Source of the DNA: the human T2T-CHM13v2.0 reference genome, Homo sapiens
Assembly: GCF_009914755.1 (NCBI RefSeq)
Contig: NC_060947.1
DNA: 64,000 bases
Reading direction: 5' to 3' (one strand)
The first letter of the stretch is position 1, and each line of letters starts with the position of its first letter. Under the pieces are notes generated by a model. The model was given only the letters and a program-made list of their open reading frames with translations, had not been told where the DNA came from and did no database searches. A program made the position numbers and the translations under genes. Shown in pieces: positions 34,913-46,279 of this stretch.

Positions 34913-34966
34913 GCGCGCGCACACACACACACACACACACACACACACACACACACACACACACAC
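34913..34966. repeat. (GC)n(AC)n microsatellite at the left edge of the palindrome
   Basis: gcgcgcgc followed by a pure AC run of about 23 units. Confidence 0.95.
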
Positions 34967-36257
34967 TAACCTTGAATGGTATCTGCATTTCTACTGTCTT
35001 TGTCTATTCAACACCCAGTCTCTTGGCGATGGGAGCAGGGAGAACCTACACACACCTCCTCACTGGAATCGGAATCTGTGCCCGAATCTGGGGCCCACCC
35101 AGTCGAGGATTCCGGCTGAAGGTAGCGGGCGATCCCAACTGTCGGGGAGGGTGAAGGCAGAACAGGGAGCTCGAGGAAATCTCATGTGACCTCGAGAGGC
35201 AATCTGGAAGACTGAGTAGGGACATGGAAATATCACATCCACAAAAACCTGCGGCCTTGGGGGTGGTGAAATGATATTTCATGGGGACCATCCAAGAACA
35301 GCCAGGCCTAGCATCGACACTTGCCCTGGAAAGCAGCTGGCCATTTTCAAATCAAGGGTATGGAGCCGACCAGCCGCAGAAGGGGCTGTTGGCTGCCTAT
35401 AGGACGCCAAGGATGTGGAAGCCACCTTCCGTGTAGCTCCCAGCCCACAGTTTCTACCAGGTTGGCCCGCAGGCATCAGAACAGACTCAGTGCCCCGGCC
35501 TCCAACCAAGAGATGAACCCGCCCTTTTCTTCAGCGTTCCTTGTACCTTCCCTTTGGCTCTGCCACCCACCAGGAGGTGGCTTCTGCCTCCACCTGGCTA
35601 CTAAGGAGGAGACCTGACCGGATTTGGTAACTGAGGTTCAAAGGTGAGGGCTAAGAGGAACTGAGGATGCCATGCAGGTTACTGGCCCAGATGACCTGAC
35701 CGTGTGCATGGTGGCACCGGAGGGACATAACAGCTCCAGAAAGAGGACGGGGCTCCATTGTGTTCCTCAACAGCACAGAAATAATCGTGCAGGAAAGGCC
35801 ACCCGCATGAAGCCACTGGGAGGGCAAAGATGCTTATGATGGAAAGAACGGTGACAGGGCAGAACTGGGACAGTGAACCGCAAGAGGAAAGGTGAGAGAG
35901 ACAGGGGTTCTAGAAGGAGTCCATCAGTTCCTGCTGAAGGAGAGGGAGAAAAGCACTGAAGAAGGGGACCTGTGACACCCCAAAGTGGGAGGAGAAGAGG
36001 AGGGACCATGAGCAGGGTGTGTAGGAGAAAGGCAGGAAATGCTGCTGTGGCCGGGCAGGGCCCCCACAGCACCTAGACCCAGGGCACTGTGGTGAGCCCG
36101 AGTGCAGGGCTGCTGCTCAGAGGCCGGCCCAGGCGCCCCGCAGGGAGAGGGCTCACCACAGAGCGCCAGGGGAACTGTTCTTCCAGCGCCAGGGAACGGA
36201 GCAACACCCGGCACACCCCAACACTCCCAACAATCACAGAGATGGCAGACCACAGAC

Positions 36258-36435
36258 CACAGAATATGAGAACGACTTTATTTCAAATTGCTTTGAACTG
36301 CGTTGGGAAGTGTGCAAATGCAGAGGAAGAGAGGAAGCCCTGGCTGAACAGGATATGGAGGGAACCCGCTTGGCTGCAGCTCCGGAGCTCCAAAGGTGGC
36401 AGCTGTTCATCTTGTAGGAAGATGCTGGCTCCAAC
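36258..36435 (-). other. 3' UTR terminal exon of the - paralog, with polyA signal
   Basis: Acceptor ctgtttcacag on the - strand before 36435; AATAAA (tttatt on +) at 36277-36282. Confidence 0.6.
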
Positions 36436-36542
36436 CTGTGAAACAGAGTAGGCTCAGGGACGGGCCCTCAGCCAGGGCCAGCCCACAGCCCTCCTAAGGT
36501 ACCATGATTGTGGAAAGGGGCATGGTGTGTGCAACACTCACT

Positions 36543-44621: not shown

Positions 44622-44800
44622 GTTGGAGCCAGCATCTTCCTACAAGATGAGCAGCTGCTACCTTTGGAGCTCCGGAGCTGCAGCTAAGCGGGTTCCCTCC
44701 ATATCCTGTTCAGCCAGGGCTTCCTCTCTTCTGCTGCATTTGCCCCCTTCCCAACACAGTTCAAAGCAGTGTGAAATAAAGTTGTTCTCATATTCTGTGG
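44622..44800 (+). other. 3' UTR terminal exon (exon 6) of the + gene, with polyA signal
   Basis: Acceptor ctgtttcacag| ending at 44621; AATAAA at 44775-44780 followed by GT-rich sequence; mirrored in the other arm. End coordinate approximate. Confidence 0.7.
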
Positions 44801-45623
44801 TCTGTGGTCTGCCCTCTCTGCGATTGTTGGGAGTGTTGGGCGGTGCGGGGTGTTGCTGTGTTCCCTGGCGCTTGAAGAACGCTCTGTGGTGGACCCTCTC
44901 CCTGTAGGGCACCTGGGCCGGCTTCTGAGCAGCAGCCCTGCAGTCACCATAGTGCCTGGGTCTAGGTGCTGTGGGGGCCCTGCCCTGCCCTGCCACAGGA
45001 GCATTTTCTGCCTTTTCCCAACACACCCTGCTCATGTTCCCTCCTCTTCTCATCCTACTTTGGGGTCTCACAGGTCCCGTTGTTCAGCGCTACTCTCCCT
45101 CACCTTCAGGAGGAACTGAGTGCCTCCTTTCAGAACCCCAGTCTCTCTTGCCTTTCCTCCTGTGGTTCACTGTGACAGTTCTGCCATGTCACTGTCCTTT
45201 CTGTCATGAGCATCCTTACTCTCCCTGCGGCTTGATGTTGGTGGCCTCTCCTGTATGGTTATTTCCATGCTGTTGAGGAGCATGACGGAGCTCATCCTTC
45301 CACTCGGGCCCAGTCCTCTTTCTGGAGCCATTATGTCCCTCTGGTGCCACCACGCATACAGTCAGTTCATCTTGGCCAGAAACCCGCGCGACATCCTCAG
45401 TTCCTCTATTAGCCCTCATCTTTGAACCTCTGTTGCCACATCCCATCAGGTCTCCCTCCTTAGTTTCAGTAGCCAGATGGAAGCAGATGCCACATCCCGG
45501 TGGGTGGCCGAGCAAAAGGGAAGGCACAGGGAGCGCTGAAAAGGGCGGGGTAGTCTCTTGGTTGGAGGTGGGGGCATTGAGTCTGTTCTGGTGCCTGTGG
45601 GCCAACCTGGTGAAAACTGCCTG

Positions 45624-45776
45624 CTGGGCGCCTGTAGTCCCAGGTACTCGGGAGGCTGAGGCAGGAGAATCACTTGAACAATGGAGGCAGAGGTTGCAGT
45701 CGAGATTGTGCCGCTGCACTCCAGCCTGGTGACAGAGCAAGACTCCGTCTAAAACAAAAACAAAAACAAAAAAAAC
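45624..45776 (+). mobile_element. 5'-truncated Alu present only in the right palindrome arm
   Basis: gggcgcctgtagtcccaggtactcgggagg...A-rich tail; not present at the equivalent left-arm site near 35445. Confidence 0.85.
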
Positions 45777-46279
45777 TTCCCACACTTCCCACTGGCAGCT
45801 ACATGGAAGGTGGCTTCCACCTCCTTGATGTCCTGTAGGCAGCCAACAGCCCCTTCTGCAACTGGTTGGCTTCATATCCTTGATTTGAAAATGGCCAGTT
45901 GCCTTCCAGGGCAAGTGTGGATGCTAGGCCTGGCTGTTCTTGGATGGTCCCCGTCAAATACTGTTCCACCATCCCCAAAGCTGCAGGTTTTTGTAGACGT
46001 GATATTTCTGTGTGCCTGTTCAGTCTTTCAGACCACCTCTTGAGGTCACATGAGATTTCCTTGAGCTTCCTGTTCTGCCTTCACCCTCCCTGACAGTTGG
46101 GATTGCCTCCTTCCTTCAGCCTGAATCCAGGGCTGTATGGGTGTGAGACACAGACAGATTCTGTTTCCAGTGATGTAAGTTCTGCCAGCTCTGAAAGCCA
46201 ACAGCCTGAGTGTTGAACAGACAAAGACAGGAGAAATGCAGATACCATTCAAGATTAGTATATGTGTGGAGACGTCTGT

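What the first reader, a model, noticed from the sequence alone, without database searches (positions are those of the whole stretch)
34966..46268. Near spacer-less ~11-kb palindrome holding a head-to-head CXorf49-family gene pair on one promoter
Seen: two ~5.5-kb inverted arms separated by under ~100 bp, ATGs about 1.04 kb apart, mirrored CCAAT boxes, matching exon structure and polyA signals. Established: X-linked palindromes commonly hold testis-expressed ampliconic genes, but the well-known ones have larger spacers and very high arm identity. Inference: this is an old, diverged fold-back duplication (local identity roughly 78-97% in the segments compared by eye) in which both copies probably share regulation. 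It could extrude a cruciform at the promoter or yield a long hairpin RNA from any read-through transcript.
Basis: partly seen in the sequence, partly recalled or inferred. Interest (0 to 1): 0.7.

Follow-up and report, generated by a model that had tools for sequence, protein, structure and literature searches.

The report
Ancient head-to-head testis gene palindrome
On the human X, two copies of a little-studied testis gene sit back to back as an 11-kb imperfect palindrome with only 93 bases between the arms; the arms have likely kept copying short patches onto each other for over 40 million years, and a matching back-to-back pair reported in mouse suggests the arrangement may be about as old as the human-mouse split.

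Summary
The palindrome is real: arms 34956-40452 and 40546-46268, 86.6% identical, 93-bp spacer, start codons 1036 bp apart, mirrored CCAAT boxes, exons and polyA signals. It holds two back-to-back promoter copies, and the same junction recurs at CXorf49 and CXorf49B. The two gene types split before New World monkeys and catarrhines parted. Arm identity is a patchwork: perfect tracts of 62-96 bp where other paralogs differ, a tree that switches along the gene, and residues shared by both copies within one species. This points to arm-to-arm gene conversion at about 87% identity. The mouse homologs Gm4779/8030474K03Rik are described in print as divergent genes on a common promoter, and rodent pairs show much stronger concerted evolution (87 versus 12 private residues). 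A single origin before the human-mouse split is plausible but untested at DNA level. The left copy has one nonsense codon (NMD predicted); its orang-utan, gibbon and macaque orthologs are full-length. A cruciform is energetically implausible. The real hairpin is different: a 58-nt antisense copy of exon 1 in the right gene's 5'UTR, predicted to fold over its start codon. New variant of a known kind.

The parts
34956..40452 (-). Left palindrome arm (A); outer end at a (TG)n tract
40453..40545 (.). 93-bp asymmetric spacer, also present at CXorf49, CXorf49B and a single-arm copy about 207 kb away (MIR-like by recall only; not confirmed here)
40546..46268 (+). Right palindrome arm (B); outer end at an Alu-type element
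36262..40170 (-). LOC100129291, 6 exons, ATG at 40034, reading frame open except for one stop
   Evidence: annotation supplied
37487..37489 (-). Nonsense codon TAG (codon 474, exon 3), 115 nt upstream of the last exon junction; NMD predicted; removes the only folded helix
40813..44795 (+). LOC101059915 (= BX276092.9), 6 exons, 518-aa DUF4641 protein, ATG at 41071
   Evidence: annotation supplied
40213..40226 (-). CCAAT box of the left promoter copy
40773..40804 (+). CCAAT box of the right promoter copy plus a tandem degenerate copy
40910..40967 (+). 58-nt antisense copy of exon-1 coding sequence inserted in the right gene's 5'UTR; absent from the 4 other arms aligned
41264..41321 (+). Pairing partner of the insert (about codons 65-84); stem encloses the AUG in a 296-nt loop
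43409..43571 (+). Longest converted tract (62 + 96 bp perfect; partner 37653-37491), intron 2 to exon 3
41261..41334 (+). 74-bp perfect tract with 39862-39789; carries the A-type Ser codon where gorilla, orang-utan, gibbon and macaque B orthologs have Pro
41514..41578 (+). 65-bp perfect tract with 39609-39545
44775..44780 (+). polyA signal of right gene (mirror 36282-36277 on -)
45629..45791 (+). 163-bp Alu-type monomer present only in the right arm
46280..46608 (-). Alu-type element at the right arm's outer breakpoint, shared with paralog D

Best explanation
This is an imperfect X-linked palindrome in which two CXorf49-family genes sit back to back on duplicated CCAAT promoters 642 bp apart, likely fire together in male germ cells, and likely still exchange short patches by arm-to-arm gene conversion. 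Shown: anatomy, 86.6% identity, mosaic of perfect and diverged blocks, repetition of the same junction at CXorf49/CXorf49B, and one nonsense codon in the left gene. Inferred history: a single gene downstream of the spacer folded back at a short imperfect inverted repeat (AGC microhomology at the junction), and the unit was later duplicated and partly deleted. The two protein types separated before New World monkeys and catarrhines split. Conversion has since homogenised intron 2-exon 3, short exon-1 patches and the C-terminal CxxC-helix exons, while mid exon 1 to exon 2 stays type-specific. Result: two disordered proteins with different middles and a near-identical C-terminal helix. In humans the left copy was recently lost as a protein (NMD predicted). 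The right mRNA is predicted to carry a 58-bp stem over its AUG that would dampen scanning-dependent translation. The DNA is not expected to extrude a cruciform.
For: Clustering of identity: longest run 96 against a mean of 50.6 in shuffles (3 of 2000 reach it); 11 runs of at least 45 bp against 1.3 (0 of 2000). In the four longest tracts A and B differ at 0 sites while other paralogs differ at 3-18%. DNA trees switch from (B,D)|(A,C1,E), 100/100, in exon 1-2 to (A,B), 88/91, in intron 2-exon 3. Sites AB|C1E 52 versus AE|BC1 30, p=0.02. Residues private to both copies of one primate: 6 over 4 pairings against 3 over 12 cross-species pairings, p=0.01, none inside the type-diagnostic blocks at aa 198-375 and 416-455. 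Protein tree: A-type and B-type clades each include New World monkeys, 100/99. Junction: locus L015 and two pieces near paralog D carry the spacer end joined to a different flank exactly at the AGC where the left arm starts. Expression: published primers for BX276092.9 give the published 515-bp product on the spliced right mRNA, and that gene is listed as testis, spermatogonia, spermatocyte and spermatid enriched. Mouse homologs are called divergent genes with a common promoter region, up-regulated together. The model of the gorilla B ortholog is disordered except for helix 490-518; aa 465-518 are 98% identical between arms, dN 0.012. 5'UTR stem: z=-8.8 against +1.1 for the left mRNA; -119.9 kcal/mol.
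Against: No human expression data for the left gene in testis were found; it appears only as a marker row in a brain table. Purifying selection alone can make conserved coding blocks, and some perfect tracts are also conserved in other paralogs (3 of the 10 longest differ at 0-2 sites from C1 and E1). Conversion is not confined to the palindrome: A-C1 differ by 0.9% in exons 5-6 and B-D by 4% in mid exon 1, and AC1|BE is the commonest site pattern (69). The primate residue test rests on 9 columns, uses two different Pongo species, and assigns orthology by tree without genomic context. Whether the single-arm locus is ancestral or a deletion derivative is not settled; the arm tree in the outer flank and that in intron 4-3' flank disagree on its place. 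The translational effect of the stem is untested, and the right ORF is intact in 5 catarrhines, so it is probably translated.
Confidence: 0.78

Rival explanations
1. Chimeric palindrome: the fold-back arose between two A-type arms (as at CXorf49, where both arms and over 8 kb of outer flank are A-type), and the window's right arm was swapped in later from a B-type paralog by non-allelic recombination near the spacer. The 13% divergence would then date the paralogs, not the palindrome.
For: A, C1, C2 and E share the same outer flank for about 5 kb, while B's flank differs and matches the D region. The outer-flank distances group A with C1/C2 (9.5-10%) before E (11-12%). B is the most distant promoter (18-20% against 13-16%).
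Against: D continues into the A-type flank after the shared Alu, so B's different flank is a later rearrangement. Spacer distances are star-like (12-14%). A-B specific conversion is seen in human, gibbon and macaque, so the pairing is at least catarrhine-old.
Confidence: 0.3
2. Independent fold-backs: primates and muroid rodents each made a head-to-head pair separately from a duplication-prone gene; the likeness is convergence.
For: Trees place the simian pair, the muroid pair and the beaver pair each inside its own lineage with SH-aLRT 90-100. The family is multi-copy in many placentals, so duplications are frequent.
Against: Concerted evolution, shown in both lineages, produces this same topology from one ancient duplication. 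A shared-promoter head-to-head layout twice in one family is a specific coincidence.
Confidence: 0.4
3. Structure-driven function: the centre extrudes a cruciform, or read-through yields a multi-kb hairpin RNA that regulates the locus.
For: 5.5-kb inverted arms with a 93-bp spacer; a transcript crossing the centre could pair over kilobases.
Against: Innermost arms are 80-86% identical, and the spacer folds at only -10 kcal/mol. Extrusion costs +143 to +670 kcal/mol against +9.6 for a perfect control (supercoiling not modelled). No centre-crossing transcript is in the supplied annotation. No Rfam family reaches its gathering score (0 of 12 matches).
Confidence: 0.07
4. Neutral decay: an old duplicate drifting apart, with identity differences due only to selection and local mutation rate.
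For: Overall dN/dS between the arms is about 0.64 (0.156/0.243) and near 0.8 in aa 181-372; the human left copy is a pseudogene.
Against: Intronic perfect tracts specific to A-B, topology switches and within-species shared residues. Full-length left-arm orthologs exist in orang-utan, gibbon and macaque.
Confidence: 0.08

Closest known systems
Human X palindromes P1-P26 (Jackson et al., bioRxiv 10.1101/2020.12.29.424738; passages and sections 8, 10 and first part of 12 read), including the neighbouring CXorf49 palindrome
   Same: X-linked inverted duplicate, testis-expressed genes, arm-to-arm conversion, rearrangement near the centre. The CXorf49 and CXorf49B copies are 100% identical over 9.8 kb.
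   Different: Those are defined by arms over 8 kb and over 99% identity. This one has 5.5-5.7-kb arms at 86.6%, so it is outside that catalogue. The paper found small spacers least conserved, yet this 93-bp spacer persists in four loci at 12-14% divergence. The genes share the centre as a promoter.
Mouse Gm4779 / 8030474K03Rik divergent pair (bioRxiv 10.1101/2023.09.10.556946, passages read; PMC7436996, passages and supplement rows read)
   Same: Homologs of the right-arm gene, DUF4641 family, divergent on a common promoter region, co-upregulated, spermatogonia-enriched; rodent pairs are concertedly evolving.
   Different: In rodents the N-terminal 200 aa is type-specific and the C-half is homogenised; in primates the type-specific block is mid-protein. 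Mouse DNA (spacer, junction, arm identity) could not be examined, and neither paper's passages I read call the pair a palindrome.
FLNA-EMD inverted repeats (Caceres et al. 2007, seen only as cited in Jackson et al.)
   Same: X-linked inverted repeat found across mammals, with the same doubt between one ancient origin and recurrent duplication.
   Different: There the genes lie in a large spacer; here the genes are the arms and the spacer is 93 bp.
Head-to-head paralog pairs on bidirectional CCAAT promoters, e.g. COL4A1/COL4A2 or histone H2A/H2B pairs (recalled, not tested)
   Same: Divergent transcription from under 1 kb, TATA-less CCAAT promoter.
   Different: Here the whole genes, introns and promoters are alignable as DNA arms and are still converting.

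Membership tests
CXorf49 / DUF4641 protein family | Pfam PF15483 above the curated cut-off | tested here: met
   433.7 bits against a cut-off of 27; both arms hit in the genome scan
Catalogued X palindromes (Jackson et al. criteria) | Arm length over 8 kb | tested here: not met
   5.5 and 5.7 kb; criterion
Catalogued X palindromes (Jackson et al. criteria) | Arm-to-arm identity over 99% | tested here: not met
   86.6%
Catalogued X palindromes (Jackson et al. criteria) | Arm-to-arm gene conversion | tested here: met
   patchy, and other paralogs also take part
Catalogued X palindromes (Jackson et al. criteria) | Testis-biased protein-coding gene in the arms | tested here: met
   Right gene = BX276092.9 by primer mapping, germ-cell enriched in a published table; left gene not shown
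Bidirectional promoter gene pair | Divergent starts within 1 kb | tested here: met
   642 bp between annotated starts
Bidirectional promoter gene pair | Both directions active in the same cells | not testable with these tools
   Reported for the mouse pair only
Bidirectional promoter gene pair | CpG island over the promoter | tested here: inconclusive
   GC 63%, o/e 0.50 over 39500-41700, 0.36 at the centre; usual 0.6 threshold recalled
Cruciform-forming palindrome | Near-perfect arms with a spacer of a few bases | tested here: not met
   93-bp spacer, 80-86% inner identity, large positive computed cost
Palindrome conserved between human and mouse | Orthologous spacer and junction in both species | not testable with these tools
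   No non-human mammalian DNA was available (notes no relatives); only orientation from print

The most novel reading that the evidence does not exclude
The head-to-head CXorf49 pair is one palindrome inherited from the human-mouse ancestor (about 85-90 My, date recalled), kept by a shared germline promoter and by patchwork conversion that works down to about 85% identity. It would be among the oldest gene-bearing X palindromes, invisible to 99%-identity catalogues and to gene trees. In catarrhines its right gene also gained a templated antisense 5'UTR insert that folds over its own start codon and is 95% complementary to the sister mRNA, a built-in translational or small-RNA switch for the family.
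Probability: 0.35. Interest if true: 0.75.

Novelty: new variant of a known kind. Interest (0 to 1): 0.55.

Why it matters
Published X palindromes are defined at over 99% identity and traced to 25 My, and small spacers are thought least stable. This locus shows a second regime: a tiny spacer, diverged arms, continuing short conversion, and two protein types with a shared C-terminal helix. If the mouse pair is orthologous, palindromes can last three times longer than shown so far while gene trees hide it, and the mouse offers a direct model (one promoter deletion removes both genes). It also flags a recent hominine gene loss and a testable RNA stem over a start codon. The genes are annotated already and no function is known, which limits the score.

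Tried and rejected
Cruciform: rejected on computed energies. Known RNA family in the arms: 0 of 12 Rfam matches reach the gathering score; the best are SRP hits on Alu-type elements. MIR identity of the spacer: recalled resemblance only; a genome search found just the 4 paralogous copies and a sensitive local BLAST found no other family members, so it is untested. PRC1.6-type motifs: no CACGTG or GGCGGGA, no TATA, no MYB pattern in 40100-40900; a preprint shows HUSH/PRC1.6 CUT&Tag at CXorf49 in Jurkat cells, not at this locus. Protein function: no PDB sequence match, no Foldseek match at E<=0.001, Atlas hits under 0.8. A two-copy model of the C-terminal helix with Zn gave no verdict (score 0.30). 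Mouse coordinates: not found in the supplements searched or the held part of PMC9542162; bioRxiv supplements are closed, and 3 of 15 files of PMC7436996 were not searched. PMC13616518 on ampliconic X genes does not mention the family in its main text. Searches for a prior description; none of the listings or passages I read describes this palindrome, its junction or the insert. Most subscription papers are not in the library, so older inverted-repeat catalogues were not checked.
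Full report
Observation. Self-BLAST shows an inverted duplication from 34956 to 46268. A global alignment gives 86.6% identity over 5441 ungapped columns, with windows from 76% to 97.5%. Inner homology ends at 40452/40546, leaving 93 bp. ATGs are 1036 bp apart and annotated starts 642 bp apart. Introns, CCAAT boxes and polyA signals mirror each other. The centre is CpG-poorer than the gene starts. 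Each arm carries its own promoter copy, so this is two back-to-back promoters around a spacer.

Genes. The right gene encodes 518 aa with DUF4641. Primers published for BX276092.9 (PMC7436996, supplement) give exactly 515 bp on its spliced mRNA, while the forward primer has 7 mismatches to the left mRNA. That gene is listed as enriched in testis, spermatogonia, spermatocytes and spermatids. The left gene has intact splice sites and one TAG at codon 474 (37489-37487), 115 nt upstream of the last junction, so NMD is predicted by the usual 50-nt rule (recalled). A model of the gorilla ortholog of the right protein is disordered apart from helix 490-518, which begins at a CxxC; the stop removes that helix. 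Proteins that group with the left gene in orang-utan, gibbon and macaque run through this position, so the loss is recent. No chimpanzee or gorilla ortholog of the left gene was among the hits, so I cannot date it closer.

The unit is repeated. The same centre occurs at CXorf49 and CXorf49B, which are 100% identical over 9838 bp. There the second arm (C2) has lost about 2 kb between exon 1 and exon 3. About 150 kb away lies a 5'-truncated B-like copy (D), and about 207 kb away a copy (E, L015) with one arm and the full spacer. In E the spacer is followed not by a second arm but by another flank, and two pieces near D have the same flank-spacer join, about 85% identical to E's. The switch from that flank to the inverted arm falls at a shared AGC, next to a 16-17-bp imperfect inverted repeat across the spacer. 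I infer that a single gene folded back at this short repeat; the opposite reading, loss of one arm in E, is not excluded.

Age. In a tree of 34 proteins (46 hits, minus unnamed, fragmentary or mis-predicted rows, plus both window genes; exon-1 core only) the right-type and left-type clades each contain New World monkeys (100/99), with aye-aye, sifaka and non-primates outside. The types therefore split before the platyrrhine-catarrhine divergence (about 40-45 My, recalled). This dates the gene types; it dates the palindrome only if the arms were always paired (see the chimera rival).

Conversion. Mismatches are clustered: longest perfect run 96 bp against 50.6 in shuffles (3 of 2000), 11 runs of at least 45 bp against 1.3 (0 of 2000). 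In the four longest tracts the other paralogs differ by 3-18%; in 3 of the 10 longest they are conserved too. Arm distance is 22-23% in mid exon 1 and exon 2 but 2.6-5.9% in exon 3 and intron 2. The DNA tree switches from (B,D) to (A,B) accordingly. Among four primates with both types, 6 residues are private to the two copies of one species against 3 in three times as many cross-species pairings (p=0.01); one of the six is also in gorilla B. Against exclusivity: A also matches C1 at 0.9% in exons 5-6, B matches D at 4% in mid exon 1, and A-C1 is the commonest four-taxon pattern (69, versus 52 and 30). So the whole cluster exchanges sequence, with an A-B excess.

Mouse. A preprint calls Gm4779 and 8030474K03Rik 'two uncharacterized divergent genes' with a 'common promoter region', up-regulated together (passage read). 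They are the listed mouse homologs of BX276092.9, and proteins with these names carry DUF4641 (the Mus musculus Gm4779 protein itself was not among the named hits). In six muroid species with both copies, 87 residues are private to the two copies of one species against 12 in 30 cross-species pairings; 24 of the 87 come from rat, Apodemus and Mus caroli, whose hits lie on contigs over 150 Mb. Draft assemblies or gene models could inflate the cricetid counts. Both Alexandromys copies list the same 10,071-bp contig length. A 38-protein tree puts simian, muroid and beaver pairs each in their own lineage, which fits either convergence or one old palindrome under concerted evolution. Many other placentals have several copies; their orientation is unknown. 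I put a single origin at about 0.55-0.6.

Secondary structure. With DNA parameters, forming two hairpins from the central 120-800 bp costs +143 to +670 kcal/mol, against +9.6 for a perfect 150-bp palindrome (supercoiling not modelled). The two mRNAs are same-sense (84% identical), so they do not pair, except for one piece. That piece is a 58-nt antisense copy of exon 1 inserted in the right gene's 5'UTR (40910-40967), 95% complementary to 41264-41321 and missing from A, C1, C2 and E. The 5' 608 nt fold with z=-8.8, against +1.1 for the left mRNA; the stem is -119.9 kcal/mol with 61 pairs above 0.5 probability, and the AUG lies in its 296-nt loop. The insert keeps the Pro codon found in gorilla, orang-utan, gibbon and macaque B, where human B now has the A-type Ser inside a 74-bp perfect tract. 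I infer it was copied from its own arm by a template switch in the catarrhine line and that the source was later converted from A. A predicted titi-monkey B protein reads across this site without the insert. Stems this stable block scanning ribosomes (established, recalled), but whether most transcripts include it is unknown.

Mechanism, graded. Shown: anatomy, repetition, mosaic identity, stop codon, insert. Inferred with good support: conversion, pre-simian-radiation age of the types, germline expression of the right gene. Inferred weakly: co-regulation in human, fold-back origin at the AGC junction, orthology with the mouse pair, regulatory role of the stem. Protein function stays open; the best guess is a disordered germ-cell protein that acts through its conserved C-terminal CxxC-helix, with no structural relative found.

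Known versus new. It works like an X palindrome but fails the catalogue's size and identity criteria. Nine literature searches returned no description of this palindrome in the listings or passages read; closed supplements and subscription papers may hold one. Papers seen: Jackson et al. (passages; sections 8, 10, part of 12), bioRxiv 2023.09.10.556946 (passages), PMC7436996 (passages, supplement rows), bioRxiv 2024.07.12.603173 (passage, section 9), and single passages or term searches of bioRxiv 2023.10.25.564058, PMC11629504, PMC4737856, PMC10298883, PMC6890825, PMC13616518, PMC9542162, and supplement searches of PMC11625040 and PMC10760527. Verdict: new variant of a known kind, interest 0.55.

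Noticed in passing
window 40910-40967: The antisense 5'UTR insert is also 94.8% complementary to the left gene's mRNA (nt 312-369) and 93% to CXorf49 copies, so it could pair in trans.
   Followed up: partly
L011:6925-6975: The second arm beside CXorf49 has a roughly 2-kb deletion joining exon 1 to exon 3 at a short GC-rich microhomology; predicted chimpanzee proteins of 280 aa match this form.
   Followed up: partly
L028 and L029: The CXorf49 unit is itself a fold-back of roughly 28 kb with outer flanks 90-96% alike, nested inside the larger near-identical palindrome.
   Followed up: partly
L023:2390-3900 and L024:7160-8590: Paralog D is flanked by an inverted duplication (91%) holding the old upstream flank and 38 bp of the spacer, cut off by an LTR-like sequence (family recalled).
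   Followed up: partly
G000:C7:50974145-50974468: Broken DUF4641 fragment with 5 stops on another chromosome, likely a retrocopy.
   Followed up: no
window 17600-19200 and 48400-50870: Two GC-rich tandem-repeat elements in opposite orientation, SVA-like by recall.
   Followed up: no
window 27050-29150: L1-like stretch (family recalled) 90-92% identical to copies near paralog D, one of which interrupts D's intron 4.
   Followed up: no
protein hits P0079, P0088: Rodents have a third, separate clade (4933412E24Rik), also listed as reproductive-tract specific.
   Followed up: no
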